Origin: an uncultured Bacilli bacterium
Lineage (GTDB): Bacteria > Bacillota_I > Bacilli_A > RF39 > UBA660
NCBI GenBank assembly: GCA_944358625.1
Contig: CALVRL010000003.1
Coordinates: 1-41,255 of the forward strand
DNA: 41,255 nt
Reading direction: 5' to 3'
Shown: positions 37,978-41,255 of the stretch, one piece after another
How positions within the stretch are numbered: position 1 is the first letter of the stretch
Layout of the letters: each line of letters begins with the position of its first letter
Notes under the pieces: model-generated
The model's database searches: none
Told to the model about the DNA's origin: nothing
What the model saw: the letters and a program-made list of their open reading frames with translations, nothing else
Translations under genes and position numbers: made by a program

Positions 37978-40116
37978 TTGTATGCTGATGTACTTGTAGA
38001 GATTATTTCTAAAGGAACTAATAAAACTTTTACTTATTATATTCCTAGTGATATGAAAGCCCATGTTGGAATGAAAGTTAAAGTTCCATTTGGTAAACGT
38101 GTTATTGAGGGTTTTATAATAAATATTCATAATAATAAACCTGAATATGAGGTAAAAAATATTATTTCTATTAGCGAATCTACTATTTTAAATAAAGAAA
38201 TGTTAAAATTAGGTGAATATATTAGTAAAAAAACTTTATCTCCCTTAACACTTTGCTATCAAACAATGCTTCCTAGTGCATTAAAAGCTAAAGAGAAAAA
38301 TAATGTTAATAAAAAAATGCTTAAATATTTAAAAGTTTTAAAAGAAGATAATCTAACAAGTGAGAAACAAAAAGAGGTTTTTGATTTTGTTAAGAAAAAA
38401 GTTGAGGTTTTAAAAAGTGAAGCTAATAAAATTTCTTCATCGGCTACAGCTACTTTAATTAAAAATGGTATTTTGGGTGAATTTTTGAAAGAAGTTTATA
38501 GATTAGAAGATGATATAGAAATAGATAAAAAAAATTATAATTTAACTATAGATCAAGAAAATGTTATTAAAAGTATTAAATTTGATACCTTTAAACCTTA
38601 TTTACTTTATGGCGTTACTGGTAGTGGTAAGACTTTGGTTTATATTAAACTTATTGAAGACGTTTTAAAAAAGGGTAAAGAAGCTATATTACTTGTTCCA
38701 GAAATTAGTTTAACACCACAGGTTACAGAAATATTTAAAAAAAGATTTGGTAAAGTGGTGGCTATTTTACATAGTTCTTTAAGTGATGGTGAAAAATATG
38801 ATGAGTGGAGAAAAATAGAAAGAAAAGAGGTTTCTATTGTTATAGGTGCTAGAAGTGCTATTTTTGCTCCTTTTACTAATTTGGGTATTATCATTGTCGA
38901 TGAAGAACATTCTGATACTTATAAACAGGAAAATAACCCTAAATATAATGCTATAGATATTGCTTTAAAAAGAGGTAAGACTTATGATATTCCTGTTGTT
39001 TTAGGTAGTGCGACGCCAAGTATTGAAAGTTATACTAGAGCTAAAATTGGAGTTTATGAACTTTTAACAATGAAAAATAGAGTAAATAAAACTTTACCTG
39101 AAGTTTATTTAGTTAATATGAAAGATGAATTTAAAAAGGGTAATCGGATATTTTCTTCTTTATTTAAAGAAAAACTAAATGATAGATTAAATAAAGGTGA
39201 ACAGGTTTTAGTTTTACTTAATAGAAGGGGATTTTCAACTACAATAACATGTCATGAATGTGGATTTACTCATAAATGCCCTAATTGTGATATTCCACTT
39301 ACTTATCATAAAAACGGAAATATTATGAGATGTCATTATTGTGATTATAAAGTTCCTAAATTATTAGAATGTCCAGTATGTCATAGTAAAAAAATCGATT
39401 CTTTAGGTATGGGAACAGAAAGATTAGAAAGTTTAATCAAAGATGAATTTAAAAATGCGAATGTTGTTCGTATGGATGCAGATACTACTAGAAATAAAGG
39501 TATGCATAAAAAAATTATTGATGATTTTAAAAATGAAAAATTTGATATTTTAGTTGGTACACAGATGATAGCAAAAGGACTTGATTTTCCTAAAGTTACT
39601 TTAGTTTGTGTTATTAATGGTGATGCTTCACTTAATATTCCTGATTTTAGAAGTGCTGAAAGAACATTTGAACTTTTATGTCAAGTAGCTGGTAGAGCTG
39701 GTAGAGATAAAATTAAAGGGGAAGTTATTATACAAGGTTTTAATGTTGATCATTATAGTATGTTGTGCGCTAAAAATAATGACTATGAAAAATTTTATAA
39801 TGAAGAAATGAAAATTCGTAAAACTTTAAAATATCCACCATATTATAATCTTTGTTTAATTAAAGTTAGTGGAAAAAATTATGATAATGTTTTTTCTGAA
39901 GCTAATAAGATTGTGACATATTTAAAAAATAATTTAGATAATATTATTTTAGGCCCAGCTTCAGCTAATATGCCTAAAATAAACAATATTTATTATGTTC
40001 AAATTATTATTAAATTTAAAAAAACAAAAGATATTTTGAGTAGTTTGGAATTTATTAAATTACATTATCAAAACAAAATTAATGTTGATATAGATTTAAA
40101 TCCTCTTAGAATATAG
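37978..40116 (+). CDS. priA: Primosomal protein N' (PriA)
   Basis: GVTGSGKT, LVPEISLTPQ, DEEH, four CxxC pairs, GTQMIAKGLDF, QVAGRAGR. Confidence 0.98.
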   Translation: MYADVLVEIISKGTNKTFTYYIPSDMKAHVGMKVKVPFGKRVIEGFIINIHNNKPEYEVKNIISISESTILNKEMLKLGEYISKKTLSPLTLCYQTMLPSALKAKEKNNVNKKMLKYLKVLKEDNLTSEKQKEVFDFVKKKVEVLKSEANKISSSATATLIKNGILGEFLKEVYRLEDDIEIDKKNYNLTIDQENVIKSIKFDTFKPYLLYGVTGSGKTLVYIKLIEDVLKKGKEAILLVPEISLTPQVTEIFKKRFGKVVAILHSSLSDGEKYDEWRKIERKEVSIVIGARSAIFAPFTNLGIIIVDEEHSDTYKQENNPKYNAIDIALKRGKTYDIPVVLGSATPSIESYTRAKIGVYELLTMKNRVNKTLPEVYLVNMKDEFKKGNRIFSSLFKEKLNDRLNKGEQVLVLLNRRGFSTTITCHECGFTHKCPNCDIPLTYHKNGNIMRCHYCDYKVPKLLECPVCHSKKIDSLGMGTERLESLIKDEFKNANVVRMDADTTRNKGMHKKIIDDFKNEKFDILVGTQMIAKGLDFPKVTLVCVINGDASLNIPDFRSAERTFELLCQVAGRAGRDKIKGEVIIQGFNVDHYSMLCAKNNDYEKFYNEEMKIRKTLKYPPYYNLCLIKVSGKNYDNVFSEANKIVTYLKNNLDNIILGPASANMPKINNIYYVQIIIKFKKTKDILSSLEFIKLHYQNKINVDIDLNPLRI

Positions 40117-40155
40117 CTGTTTGCTTTATTAAGAGAAATGTGTTATTATGTATAT

Positions 40156-40269
40156 AGATGAAGGAAACTTCATATAATAAAAAAAGGAACATTCAATACT
40201 TCCATGTTGGATGTTGCCAAATAATTTTGGTTGTCACCTAATCACAGATGTGTTAGGTGATTTTCTTTT
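40156..40269 (+). ncRNA. Putative antitoxin sRNA 1
   Basis: TTGCTT-N17-TATTAT promoter (40121-40149, extended TG), 5' GAAA-loop hairpin, terminator TCACCTAA...TTAGGTGA plus T-run; convergent on the peptide gene. Confidence 0.7.
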
Positions 40270-40351
40270 ATATTAAAGTTATTAATAATAACGATAATTG
40301 AAAGAAGATAATAATGAGTAAGTTTAAGATTAAAAAATCTTTCTTGTTCAT
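40268..40351 (-). CDS. Putative type I toxin peptide 1 (27 aa) MNKKDFLILNLLIIIFFQLSLLLITLI
   Basis: RBS GGGAGG; one hydrophobic helix; own TTGATT-N17-TATACT promoter at 40444-40416; paralogs in the other units. Confidence 0.8.
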   Translation of the reverse strand: MNKKDFLILNLLIIIFFQLSLLLITLI

Positions 40352-40510
40352 TAAATCGCCTCCCTTCTAAATAGAAGTTTGGCAATCACCCAACTATCAA
40401 ATGTTCCTTAATATAAGTATAACAAACAGTTATATATAAATCAATGCAATTTATTACATTTTGTTAAATTTTAATTTGCTTTATTAAGAGAAATGTGTTA
40501 TTATGTATAT

Positions 40511-40622
40511 AGATGAAGGAAACTTCATATAATAAAAAAGGAACATTCAATACTTCCATGTTGGATGTTGCAAAAAAATTGTTGTTTCCACCTAATCACA
40601 GATGTGTTAGGTGGTTTTCTTT
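40511..40622 (+). ncRNA. Putative antitoxin sRNA 2
   Basis: Same promoter (40476-40504); terminator CCACCTAA...TTAGGTGG plus T-run. Confidence 0.7.
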
Positions 40623-40704
40623 ATATTAATACTTTATAAAGTAGAAATACAAGTGAAAAGATAAGGAAGATTAAAGATAAAATTAAAAAATCTTTTTTAC
40701 TCAT
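40621..40704 (-). CDS. Putative type I toxin peptide 2 (27 aa) MSKKDFLILSLIFLIFSLVFLLYKVLI
   Basis: RBS GGGAGG; frame and hydrophobicity conserved relative to peptide 1. Confidence 0.8.
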   Translation of the reverse strand: MSKKDFLILSLIFLIFSLVFLLYKVLI

Positions 40705-40864
40705 CTTATCAGCCTCCCTTCTAAATAGAAGTTTAGCTCCACCCAACTATCAAACGTTCCTTAATATAAGTATAACAAACAGTTATATATAAATCAATGC
40801 AATTTATTACATTTTGTTAAAATTCTAATTTGCTTTATTAAGAAAAATGTGATATTATGTATAT

Positions 40865-40989
40865 AGATGAAGGAAACTTCATAAAATAAAAAAAGGAACA
40901 TTCAATACTTCCATGTTGAATGCGACCTATATATTTTCTATCGCACCTAAATCACTAGAAGCTAATGAGTTAGGTGCGCTTTTCTATTT
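40865..40989 (+). ncRNA. Putative antitoxin sRNA 3
   Basis: Promoter 40830-40858; terminator CGCACCTAA...TTAGGTGCG plus T-rich tail. Confidence 0.68.
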
Positions 40990-41061
40990 AAATAATAATG
41001 TAAATATTAAAATAAATAGAAGCAGGATTATGAAAAAGAAATAGTTATCTCTTTTAGACAT
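40984..41061 (-). CDS. Putative type I toxin peptide 3 (25 aa) MSKRDNYFFFIILLLFILIFTLLFK
   Basis: RBS AAGGAGGTG; hydrophobic helix; same position in the unit. Confidence 0.78.
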   Translation of the reverse strand: MSKRDNYFFFIILLLFILIFTLLFK

Positions 41062-41240
41062 AAACACCACCTCCTTAATGGAGATCGCACCCAAATTATT
41101 GAATATTCCTTAATACAAATATAACAAACAGTTATATATAAATCAACACAATTTATTACATTTTGTTAATTTTATTTATTTTTCATGTAAAGCTAGTGAA
41201 TTTTTTTAATGTGTGATAAAATATTAAATAAGGTGATGAT

Positions 41241-41255
41241 ATGGACTTTGATAAA
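41241..41255 (+). CDS. Start of a CDS running off the window (MDFDK...)
   Basis: RBS AAGGTGA followed by ATG; too short to identify. Confidence 0.4.

What the first reader, a model, noticed from the sequence alone, without database searches (positions are those of the whole stretch)
40121..41170. Unannotated triple array of type I toxin-antitoxin-like modules
Seen: each ~355-bp unit has a plus-strand promoter (TTGCTT-17-TATTAT) driving a ~110-125-nt non-coding RNA with a terminator. It also has a minus-strand promoter (TTGATT-17-TATACT in units 1-2, TATATT in unit 3) driving a 25-27 aa peptide M(N/S)K(K/R)D-hydrophobic with a GGAGG RBS. Peptide DNA diverges while frame and hydrophobicity persist, and terminator stems covary (TCACC/GGTGA, CCACC/GGTGG, CGCACC/GGTGCG). 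Known: this convergent layout matches Firmicute type I systems such as TxpA/RatA and BsrG/SR4, and tandem copies recall Ldr/Rdl and Ibs/Sib. The peptides lack the Fst motif, and I cannot assign them to a known family.
Basis: partly seen in the sequence, partly recalled or inferred. Interest (0 to 1): 0.75.

Follow-up and report, generated by a model that had tools for sequence, protein, structure and literature searches.

The report
Tandem type I toxin-antitoxin-like modules
Three back-to-back copies of a small two-RNA unit, a tiny membrane-peptide gene faced by an antisense RNA, sit between two housekeeping genes of an uncultured gut bacterium and look like an undescribed family of RNA-controlled toxin-antitoxin genes.

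Summary
Window 40117-41180 holds three ~355-bp units. Each has a plus-strand promoter, a ~115-125-nt structured non-coding RNA and, on the minus strand, a promoter, a strong ribosome-binding site and a 25-27-aa hydrophobic peptide gene.

New here:
- The peptide mRNA most likely runs through the sRNA gene, so the sRNA lies inside its 3' UTR.
- The first ~30 nt of the mRNA pair with its last ~60 nt in a long-range 5'-3' helix, supported by compensatory changes and a strand-specific G·U excess.
- The ribosome-binding site is mostly sequestered in predicted folds.
- The peptide frames show coding-type selection.

The family is multi-copy: 9 copies in this 1.0-Mb assembly. The sRNA model hits 79 of 150 genera of the same family and 0 of 137 genomes from 25 other Bacilli families. 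At least six peptide subfamilies share the sRNA 5' part. There are no Rfam, Pfam or NCBIfam matches and no phage or plasmid copies.

Three metatranscriptome runs hold the unique part of unit 1, but they show neither strand nor RNA ends.

Verdict: most likely a new type I toxin-antitoxin family (confidence 0.7). It combines the 3'-overlap layout of Gram-positive systems with a hok/AapA1-like 5'-3' lock. Toxicity and antitoxin action are untested.

The parts
40121..40149 (+). Unit 1 sRNA promoter: TTGCTT (40121-40126), 17 nt, TATTAT (40144-40149), with TG at 40141-40142
   Evidence: Read. Conserved in all three units. Not scored by the consensus scan because the -35 box matches 3 of 6.
40156..40269 (+). 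Unit 1 antisense sRNA (~114 nt): 5' hairpin H1, A-run, hairpin H2, variable hairpin H3, terminator hairpin H4 plus T-run
   Evidence: Fold -36.5 kcal/mol, z -5.66. Covariance model R1 hit 40156-40275, 112.7 bits. Covariation in H2 and H4. The ends are predicted, not mapped.
40268..40351 (-). Unit 1 peptide gene, 27 aa, MNKKDFLILNLLIIIFFQLSLLLITLI (stop codon included); SD GGGAGG at 40359-40364
   Evidence: GRAVY 1.79, net charge +1. Subfamily A shows coding-type selection.
40176..40409 (-). Unit 1 putative peptide mRNA (~234 nt). Its 5' UTR (40409 down to ~40378) pairs with its 3' end (~40240 down to ~40184). It covers the sRNA gene except H1.
   Evidence: Fold -69 kcal/mol, z -7.5, with a ~30-bp 5'-3' helix. 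The helix covaries in 56 copies. RNA-library contigs lie on 40201-40395. The ends are predicted.
40416..40444 (-). Unit 1 peptide promoter TTGATT-17-TATACT with TG
40476..40504 (+). Unit 2 sRNA promoter TTGCTT-17-TATTAT
40511..40624 (+). Unit 2 antisense sRNA
   Evidence: R1 hit 40511-40628, 114 bits
40621..40704 (-). Unit 2 peptide gene, 27 aa, MSKKDFLILSLIFLIFSLVFLLYKVLI; SD at 40713-40718
40529..40762 (-). Unit 2 putative peptide mRNA
   Evidence: Row of alignment A2. The ends are predicted.
40769..40797 (-). Unit 2 peptide promoter TTGATT-17-TATACT with TG
40830..40858 (+). Unit 3 sRNA promoter TTGCTT-17-TATTAT
40865..40990 (+). Unit 3 antisense sRNA (~126 nt, longer terminator stem)
   Evidence: R1 hit 40865-40991, 104.5 bits. 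Inverted repeat I10.
40984..41061 (-). Unit 3 peptide gene, 25 aa, MSKRDNYFFFIILLLFILIFTLLFK; SD GGAGG at 41070-41074 inside a CUCC/GGAG hairpin
40885..41112 (-). Unit 3 putative peptide mRNA with 5'-3' helix
   Evidence: Fold -74.6 kcal/mol, z -8.2. The ends are predicted.
41118..41146 (-). Unit 3 peptide promoter TTGATT-17-TATATT with TG
37978..40116 (+). Upstream flanking gene, 712 aa. I read it as priA from its motifs (no family search was run). Not part of the modules.
   Evidence: In five same-genus genomes the homologue is followed by the next gene with no complete module.

Best explanation
Each unit is a type I toxin-antitoxin-like module.

Peptide mRNA. The minus strand gives a ~230-nt mRNA for a 25-27-aa single-helix membrane peptide, the presumed toxin. 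Its ribosome-binding site is mostly held in a hairpin with an upstream CUYC anti-SD. Its first ~30 nt pair with its own 3' end, closing the molecule into a stable and probably poorly translated form.

Antisense sRNA. The plus strand gives a ~115-125-nt sRNA, the presumed antitoxin, from a promoter inside the mRNA's 3' end. Apart from its 5' hairpin, the sRNA is perfectly complementary to the mRNA's 3' UTR, up to but not into the ORF. That stretch includes the 3' strand of the long-range helix. As a result the sRNA carries a near copy of the mRNA's 5' UTR.

Inferred mechanism. The sRNA docks through complementary loops (its H2 and H4 loops against the bulge and hairpin of the mRNA 3' UTR). It then zips into a ~90-bp duplex that RNase III cuts, and it displaces the 5' end. 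The mRNA is destroyed before the peptide is made.

Shown here: the sequence anatomy, the covarying structures on the appropriate strands, coding selection, multi-copy lineage-wide spread, presence in RNA libraries, and an rnc gene in the genome.

Inferred only: transcript ends, toxicity, neutralisation by the sRNA, and the role of RNase III.
For: 1. Anatomy in all three units.

2. sRNA structure. In 72 copies, 93.4% of cells are paired against 82.3% in shuffles (0 of 500 reach it), 17 of 21 pairs change on both sides, and slid controls give 30-47%. In hairpin H2 there are 65 G·U cells and 0 A·C cells, so the hairpin is selected on the plus-strand RNA.

3. Peptide mRNA. Folds have z -7.5 and -8.2 with a 5'-3' helix. 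In 56 copies the helix has 13 pairs, 8 with changes on both sides, and 96.4% of cells paired against 45-53% when slid. It has 71 G·U against 12 A·C cells, so it is selected on the minus-strand RNA. The duplex between the cognate 5' UTR and 3' end averages -34.8 kcal/mol, against -25.5 for non-cognate pairs and -15.0 for shuffled ones.

4. SD unpaired probability averages 0.16 over 56 mRNAs. The anti-SD pairs are 94.7% paired.

5. Coding signal. Nucleotide diversity by codon position is 0.277/0.114/0.310 (24 CDS, subfamily A) and 0.249/0.170/0.342 (16 CDS, subfamily B). Synonymous to non-synonymous single-base differences are 1194:1084 and 545:417. By my own rough estimate, unselected sequence would give about 1:3.

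6. 88 of 114 unique units from many genomes have an SD-preceded hydrophobic ORF of 18-45 aa on the antisense strand. They fall into at least six peptide subfamilies sharing the sRNA 5' part.

7. Nine copies in this assembly, in tandem pairs or triples. Model R1 hits 79 of 150 genera of the family.

8. Presence/absence at this very site among five same-genus genomes.

9. Contigs of 174-195 nt, at least 99% identical, on 40201-40395 in three metatranscriptome runs from two studies.

10. An RNase III gene in the same genome, 248.6 bits against a cut-off of 166.
Against: - No experiment shows toxicity, translation, or control by the sRNA.
- The RNA-library contigs give no strand, and their ends coincide with repeat boundaries. 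DNA carry-over is not excluded.
- The plus-strand -35 box is weak (3 of 6), and promoter-like matches are no more frequent than in shuffles.
- Modelling sRNA binding does not change SD accessibility in a consistent direction: 12 mRNAs more open, 11 more closed, of 56.
- The alignments were collected with a pattern lying in H1 and the A-run. The invariance of H1 and of the T-run behind the mRNA's last hairpin is therefore partly by construction. The sequences are also relatives, not independent samples.
- The peptides match no known toxin family. Some have no charged tail.
Confidence: 0.7

Rival explanations
1. These are genes for small membrane peptides with an ordinary, non-toxic role (for example a subunit or regulator of a membrane complex). 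Their expression is tuned by a cis-antisense RNA, so this is not a toxin-antitoxin pair.
For: The coding selection, the SD and the antisense RNA fit this reading as well. No toxin family matches. Toxicity is untested. Sites lie between housekeeping genes.
Against: - Up to 9 copies in a 1-Mb assembly and up to 18 model matches in one ~1.3-Mb relative.
- Tandem arrays and presence/absence at one site among species of one genus.
- At least six unrelated-looking peptide subfamilies behind one sRNA type.
- Orphan sRNA copies.
- A locked, SD-sequestered mRNA.

From established knowledge of hok, AapA1, Ibs, Ldr and Zor, these are the habits of type I toxin loci, not of housekeeping micro-proteins.
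Confidence: 0.2
2. The plus-strand RNA is an independent trans-acting sRNA, or merely a terminator or 3' element of the upstream gene. It has no regulatory link to the peptide mRNA, and the overlap is incidental.
For: The H1 hairpin plus A-run is conserved and lies outside the overlap. Many BLAST matches in relatives cover only this 5' part. An sRNA copy without a peptide gene exists.
Against: - Each unit, including the internal ones, has its own promoter.
- In 88 of 114 units the sRNA is paired with an antisense peptide gene at a fixed distance.
- The peptide mRNA's 5' UTR covaries with the strand complementary to the sRNA.
- Only 1 of 56 peptide mRNAs has a T-run behind the shared hairpin, so the mRNA should read into the sRNA gene.
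Confidence: 0.07
3. A non-coding repeated DNA element (MITE- or REP-like intergenic repeat) whose inverted repeats and small ORFs are by-products.
For: It is multi-copy and intergenic, contains inverted repeats (I6-I8), and shows insertion polymorphism.
Against: - Second codon positions are the most conserved, and synonymous changes are in excess.
- SD and start codon are kept.
- G·U tolerance is strand-specific: 71 G·U against 12 A·C in the 5'-3' helix on the minus strand, and 65 against 0 in H2 on the plus strand. That points to selection on RNA, not on DNA.
- No terminal inverted repeats or target duplications were seen at the array ends.
- No copies in phage, plasmid or viral collections.
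Confidence: 0.03

Closest known systems
BsrG/SR4 and TxpA/RatA of Bacillus subtilis (type I TA, Gram-positive)
   Same: - Convergent genes.
- The antisense RNA overlaps the 3' end of the toxin mRNA.
- Small hydrophobic peptide.
- SD held in secondary structure.
- For BsrG/SR4, duplex cleavage by RNase III plus an effect on the SD (passage of review PMC8309996).
   Different: - In those systems the antisense RNA overlaps the ORF (T1TAdb paper, passage). Here the overlap stops at the stop codon.
- Here the mRNA has a ~30-bp 5'-3' helix whose 3' strand is the sRNA target.
- The peptides are shorter: 24-30 aa against 38 aa for BsrG.
- No Rfam match to any family at E up to 10.
Fst/RNAII (par of pAD1) and SprA1/SprA1as
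   Same: Gram-positive systems in which the antisense RNA lies on the 3' side and does not overlap the ORF (T1TAdb paper, passage).
   Different: - In those systems the productive pairing lies outside the overlap, at the translation start.
- Here the sRNA and the mRNA 5' part share like-sense, not complementary, sequence.
- A duplex test found no cognate-specific pairing: -30.7 cognate, -28.6 non-cognate, -25.9 shuffled.
- No match to any Pfam family, which would include a Fst family if Pfam holds one.
hok/Sok (plasmid R1) and AapA1/IsoA1 (Helicobacter pylori)
   Same: - The full-length toxin mRNA is locked by folding, with an occluded SD.
- hok mRNA needs 3'-end processing and refolding to become active (passage of PMC8309996).
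- 5'-3' long-distance interactions are used as descriptors of type I toxin mRNAs (T1TAdb paper).
   Different: - Those are Gram-negative systems whose antisense RNA targets the 5' part or the ORF.
- Here the antisense RNA covers the 3' strand of the lock itself.
- The window's units have no leader ORF.
Ibs/Sib, Ldr/Rdl, Zor/Orz (tandemly repeated chromosomal type I loci of E. coli)
   Same: Tandem duplication of whole toxin-sRNA units in intergenic regions. The search logic 'tandemly duplicated, small, hydrophobic' is what found ZorO (passage of PMC8309996).
   Different: Unrelated sequences, different placement of the sRNA, and a different phylum.

Membership tests
Type I toxin-antitoxin systems (the kind) | Small (about 20-60 aa) hydrophobic peptide encoded on a short mRNA | tested here: met
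   25-27 aa, GRAVY 1.5-1.9. Coding-type selection. Predicted mRNA ~230 nt. Size range taken from the T1TAdb paper.
Type I toxin-antitoxin systems (the kind) | A non-coding antisense RNA with a region complementary to the toxin mRNA | tested here: met
   - Own promoter and terminator.
- Covarying structure.
- No conserved frame, since the A-run length varies.
- Perfect complementarity to the predicted 3' UTR: cognate duplexes -158 to -178 kcal/mol.

Transcription is shown only as unstranded contigs in RNA libraries.
Type I toxin-antitoxin systems (the kind) | The peptide is toxic when over-produced | not testable with these tools
Type I toxin-antitoxin systems (the kind) | The RNA prevents toxin synthesis (translation block and/or mRNA decay) | not testable with these tools
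   Only indirect evidence: an rnc gene is present. The in-silico SD accessibility test was inconclusive.
Type I toxin-antitoxin systems (the kind) | The toxin mRNA folds so as to limit translation (SD/anti-SD, 5'-3' interaction) | tested here: met
Known antitoxin RNA families in Rfam (13 type I families according to the T1TAdb paper) | Match to the family covariance model | tested here: not met
   cmscan of 39900-41255 on both strands at E up to 10 gave 7 chance-level matches, none to an antitoxin family.
Known type I toxin protein families (Pfam, NCBIfam) | Match to a family profile | tested here: not met
   0 families at E up to 10 for the three peptides in Pfam and NCBIfam. This is a weak test for 25-aa peptides.
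Fst/RNAII, SprA1/SprA1as | The sRNA pairs with the toxin translation-initiation region through sequences outside the 3' overlap | tested here: not met
   Cognate -30.7, non-cognate -28.6, shuffled -25.9 kcal/mol over 27 of 54 pairs. The shared 5' sequences are like-sense.
TxpA/RatA, BsrG/SR4, BsrE/SR5, YonT/SR6, SprG/SprF | The antisense RNA overlaps the 3' part of the toxin ORF | tested here: not met
   The predicted sRNA 3' end (about 40269) meets only the stop codon (40268-40270). The same holds in units 2 and 3.
hok/Sok, AapA1/IsoA1 | The antisense RNA targets the 5' part of the mRNA; hok also has a leader ORF | tested here: not met
   The sRNA lies in the 3' UTR. No leader ORF in the window's units. 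The 5'-3' lock itself is shared.

The most novel reading that the evidence does not exclude
The antisense RNA works as a decoy of the toxin mRNA's own 5' end. It carries a near copy of the 5' UTR, so it competes with that UTR for the mRNA's 3' end.

The 5'-3' lock and the antitoxin would then be mutually exclusive partners of one 3' segment. The locked mRNA would be an antitoxin-resistant, long-lived store. sRNA invasion would both create an RNase III substrate and free the 5' end for 5'-exonucleolytic decay. Loss of the 3' segment by trimming would arm the toxin.

This would be a third logic beside 5'-targeting (hok, AapA1) and ORF-overlapping (BsrG, TxpA) antitoxins. It would be found at very high density (up to 9-18 model matches per 1.0-1.5 Mb) in reduced genomes of an uncultured gut lineage.
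Probability: 0.25. Interest if true: 0.72.

Novelty: new variant of a known kind. Interest (0 to 1): 0.6.

Why it matters

This family would add an abundant, lineage-wide set of such modules in a group of small-genome, uncultured gut Bacilli for which nothing of the kind is in print in the libraries searched. That statement rests on two searches. 'type I toxin-antitoxin' with 'CAG-822' gave 0 papers. The same term with 'Mollicutes' gave 5 papers, none relevant by title or abstract.

The family comes with more than a hundred natural variants of both RNAs. That is a ready-made covariation data set for how a 5'-3' mRNA lock and a 3'-embedded antisense RNA interact.

Practically, the sRNA covariance model and the peptide subfamilies would let annotators label hundreds of currently blank intergenic regions in gut metagenome genomes.

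Tried and rejected
1. Rfam at E up to 10: only chance-level hits.

2. Pfam and NCBIfam on the three peptides: nothing. One call failed because my coordinates for three extra peptides from loci held a stop codon. I re-sent only the window's three peptides.

So I cannot say whether public gene calls hold these peptides.

4. Does sRNA binding change SD exposure? Mean unpaired probability was 0.16 against 0.18, with 12 mRNAs up and 11 down of 56. No consistent effect.

5. Fst/SprA1-like trans pairing of the sRNA with the translation start: no cognate signal (on every second one of 54 pairs; the full run, timed out).

6. The shared hairpin H4 as a bidirectional terminator for the peptide mRNA: only 1 of 56 have at least 6 T in the 10 nt behind it on that strand. 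Its G·U bias also favours the sRNA strand, 22 G·U against 10 A·C.

7. Mobile-element origin: 0 pattern matches in viral contigs, and no blastn match in plasmids or phages.

8. RNA runs: no contig lay on priA or on units 2-3 in X18-X20. X15 is probably DNA. The contig ends at 40201 and 40383-40395 coincide with the edges of the repeated parts, so they are not RNA ends.

9. Earlier findings of this scan: nothing on this genome or this sequence, and the word search gave unrelated items.

10. Supplement of Fozo et al. 2010 (lists of candidate toxin ORFs): not searchable here. Its main text has no Mollicutes, Mycoplasma or Tenericutes. T1TAdb itself cannot be queried here. Similar peptides could be listed in either.

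11. The GTDB order and family names that I recalled for 'CAG-822' could not be confirmed. A paper on RFN20 does not mention CAG-822, so I give no GTDB name.

12. The two BLAST matches outside the genus (E 3e-4 and 8e-4, under 50 nt) I treat as chance. The covariance model found nothing outside the family.
Full report
**What is there**

The stretch lies between a 712-aa gene ending at 40116 and a gene starting at 41242. I read the first as priA from its motifs; I ran no family search on it.

It consists of three direct repeat units at 40117-40471, 40472-40825 and 40826-41180, with 85% mean column identity. Conservation is uneven. The two ends of each unit are nearly identical between units. The middle differs, most of all in unit 3.

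Each unit has these features:
- Plus strand: TTGCTT, 17 nt, then TATTAT with an upstream TG.
- A ~115-125-nt stretch with four hairpins, the last followed by a T-run.
- Minus strand: TTGATT-17-TATACT (or TATATT) with TG. The scan finds all three.
- A GGAGG-type ribosome-binding site and a 25-27-aa ORF: MNKKDFLILNLLIIIFFQLSLLLITLI, MSKKDFLILSLIFLIFSLVFLLYKVLI and MSKRDNYFFFIILLLFILIFTLLFK. GRAVY is 1.5-1.9 and net charge +1 or +2.

**The organism and the spread of the element**

The window is contig 3 of a 1.02-Mb, 80-contig, 69.5%-complete assembly with 26.7% G+C.

A profile of the unit finds nine copies in it: three here, two tandem pairs on other contigs and two singles. All have a 24-30-aa hydrophobic ORF behind GGAGG.

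BLAST finds the unit in 22 of 24 other genomes of the genus, with up to 13 matches in one genome.

A scan of one genome per species for a motif in the sRNA's 5' part gave 111 stretches. All lie in metagenome-assembled genomes titled uncultured Bacilli, Tenericutes or Firmicutes, 'Firmicutes bacterium CAG:822', Candidatus Coprosoma or Candidatus Faecisoma.

A covariance model of the sRNA (R1) gave:
- Matches in 79 of 150 genomes taken one per genus from the same family.
- 90 of 149 genomes of that family and 0 of 1 of the only other family in the order sample.
- 0 of 137 genomes from 25 other families of the class at E up to 1e-4.

There is no match in viral contigs, plasmids or phages. The element is therefore chromosomal, multi-copy and, as far as these samples show, confined to one family of small-genome gut Bacilli.

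**The small ORFs are real genes**

From the fetched loci plus this genome I extracted 114 distinct units. Of these, 88 have an SD-preceded ORF of 18-45 aa on the antisense strand with an uncharged run of at least 12 residues.

This count is a floor. Unit 1 of the window fails the run filter, and unit 3 does not match the collecting pattern.

The ORFs fall into at least six subfamilies. Examples are MNKKDFLI...ITLI (27 aa), MTKREKALY...ILFK (25 aa), MKTKTFIVK...VIKK (30 aa), MSKKDLLIS...LLYK (24 aa) and MLELLVLALIVILYTIIAIKNK (22 aa).

Within the two largest subfamilies the second codon position is the least variable: 0.114 against 0.277 and 0.310, and 0.170 against 0.249 and 0.342. Synonymous single-base differences are about as frequent as non-synonymous ones (1194:1084 and 545:417). 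By my own rough estimate, roughly one in four random single-base changes would be synonymous. This is the signature of translated, hydrophobic coding sequence.

**The plus-strand RNA is a structured non-coding RNA**

Unit 1's candidate (40156-40269) folds at -36.5 kcal/mol with z = -5.7.

In an alignment of 72 copies (A3) I tested a three-helix core. Of the cells, 93.4% pair against 82.3% in shuffles (0 of 500 reach it). 17 of 21 pairs show changes on both sides. Sliding the partners drops pairing to 30-47%.

A caveat applies. The copies were collected with a pattern that lies in hairpin H1 and the A-run, so H1's four invariant pairs say nothing. The covariation in H2 and in the terminator H4 is independent of the pattern. 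The sequences are also relatives of each other.

No reading frame is kept, because the A-run varies in length.

In H2 there are 65 G·U cells and no A·C cell. This fits a hairpin selected on the plus-strand RNA and not on its complement.

**The peptide mRNA and its 5'-3' lock**

The inverted repeats reported (I6-I8) mean that the sRNA and the peptide mRNA share like-sense sequence near their 5' parts. The reason appears when the minus strand is folded from the predicted start (40409) through the sRNA gene to the T-run at about 40176.

The first ~30 nt pair with the last ~60 nt in two helices around a 7-10-nt bulge. Unit 1 gives -69 kcal/mol (z -7.5) and unit 3 gives -74.6 (z -8.2).

In 56 aligned mRNAs (A2) RNAalifold recovers this helix by itself. 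Of its 13 pairs, 8 change on both sides (for example C-G 35 with U-A 16, and A-U 35 with G-C 10). 96.4% of cells pair, against 45-53% when slid.

Non-Watson-Crick cells are 71 G·U against 12 A·C. The helix is therefore selected on the minus-strand RNA, not on the DNA or on the sRNA.

Cognate 5' UTR and 3' end duplexes average -34.8 kcal/mol, against -25.5 for non-cognate pairs and -15.0 for shuffled ones.

That the mRNA reads past the shared hairpin H4 is supported in two ways:
- On that strand only 1 of 56 copies has a T-run behind H4, while all 56 have one behind the last hairpin. The latter is partly by construction of the collecting pattern.
- H4's G·U bias favours the sRNA strand.

The SD is mostly paired, with mean unpaired probability 0.16. 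Its usual partner is an upstream CUYC, and those pairs are 94.7% paired.

**Transcription**

Three runs on record as metatranscriptomes, from two studies, each hold one short contig at least 99% identical to the unique middle of unit 1. The contigs are 195, 174 and 184 nt and lie on 40201-40395, 40216-40389 and 40201-40383.

Contigs show neither strand nor RNA ends. Their ends coincide with the repeated parts, where assembly graphs branch. DNA carry-over cannot be excluded. I count this as weak support for expression.

**Behaviour as a locus**

In five other genomes of the genus I found the homologue of the upstream gene.
- In one, the next gene follows after 64 nt with no module.
- In another, a 245-nt gap holds an sRNA copy only, with the peptide gene gone.
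- In three, the model finds nothing near the gene.

The array here is therefore a lineage-specific gain or expansion at this site. From my knowledge of the Ibs, Ldr, Zor and hok loci, tandem duplication, copy-number change and decay to orphan sRNAs are habits of chromosomal type I toxin-antitoxin loci.

**How it most likely works**

Shown here: two convergent, overlapping transcription units; a covarying sRNA; a locked, SD-occluded mRNA for a selected hydrophobic peptide; and an RNase III gene in the genome (248.6 bits).

Inferred: the sRNA is perfectly complementary to about 90 nt of the mRNA's 3' UTR. Cognate duplexes are -158 to -178 kcal/mol. Units 1 and 2 cross at about -122 to -126, and unit 3 against the others gives -79 to -97.

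I propose the following sequence:
1. The sRNA docks by its H2 and H4 loops on the complementary bulge and hairpin loop of the locked mRNA.
2. It displaces the mRNA's 5' end.
3. It forms a duplex that RNase III cleaves, as described for SR4 and bsrG (passage of PMC8309996).

A simple model in which sRNA binding alters SD exposure gave no consistent result. A Fst/SprA1-like contact with the translation start has no support. Whether 3' trimming arms the mRNA, as in hok, is open.

**Comparison with known systems**

- The layout (sRNA on the 3' side) is that of the Gram-positive families.
- The absence of overlap with the ORF is shared only with Fst/RNAII and SprA1/SprA1as, according to the T1TAdb paper (passages). 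Those systems pair elsewhere.
- The 5'-3' lock recalls hok and AapA1, whose antisense RNAs act at the 5' side.
- No Rfam, Pfam or NCBIfam family matches.

I therefore file it as a type I toxin-antitoxin-like family that is new in sequence. It is a variant in architecture because the antitoxin target is the 3' strand of the mRNA's own lock.

I found nothing in print in the following searches:
- 'type I toxin-antitoxin' with 'CAG-822': 0 papers.
- The same term with 'Mollicutes': 5 papers, none relevant by title or abstract.
- A four-term search on type I toxins in metagenome-assembled genomes: 12 of 49 papers listed, none on such genomes.
- The main text of Fozo et al. 2010, which has no Mollicutes, Mycoplasma or Tenericutes.

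Its supplement and T1TAdb itself could not be searched.

**Verdict**

Confidence that these are functional type I toxin-antitoxin modules is 0.7. The main rival, at 0.2, is non-toxic membrane micro-proteins under antisense control. Interest is 0.6. This is not a new kind of system. It is a large, well-resolved new family with an unusual combination of features in an uncultured lineage.

Noticed in passing
L121, L123, L046, L147, L138 (peptide side of the units): One peptide subfamily (MLELLVLALIVILYTIIAIKNK, 21-23 aa, GTG or TTG start) is preceded by a 16-aa leader ORF (MHINIITGGLCWNYLF) with a stronger SD. The leader overlaps the peptide's own SD and start, which recalls the mok/hok arrangement.
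   Followed up: no
L158:2438-2552 (same-genus genome G012, just downstream of the homologue of the window's 37978-40116 gene): An orphan copy of the sRNA (R1 73.2 bits) with only a remnant of the peptide gene's 3' end. It is a decayed module at the same site where the window has three intact ones.
   Followed up: partly
window 40175-40282 and 40528-40633, minus strand: The sRNA model also scores weakly (about 34 bits) on the opposite strand of units 1 and 2, because the hairpins are near-palindromic. This shows that the mRNA's 3' UTR can adopt an sRNA-like fold when it is not in the 5'-3' lock.
   Followed up: no
Relatives, (for example G001:C58:6070-6127, G024:C91:124-169): Many BLAST matches cover only query positions ~25-80 (sRNA promoter, H1 and A-run) at 90-96% identity. 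Either orphan sRNAs are common, or this 5' part is joined to peptide and terminator parts too diverged for BLAST.
   Followed up: partly
G000:C76:2800-3138 (own genome, not in the window): The most diverged copy (R1 50 bits) has a different H1 sequence but the same layout, with peptide MVKKDMLICSLLLIIFSLLTILFTLVK. So H1's sequence is not invariant across the family.
   Followed up: partly
window 40201-40395: In three metatranscriptome runs the only contigs laid on the 1456-base stretch cover the unique middle of unit 1. Units 2 and 3 and the flanking genes had none. That may reflect strain content, assembly breaks at repeats, or expression level.
   Followed up: partly
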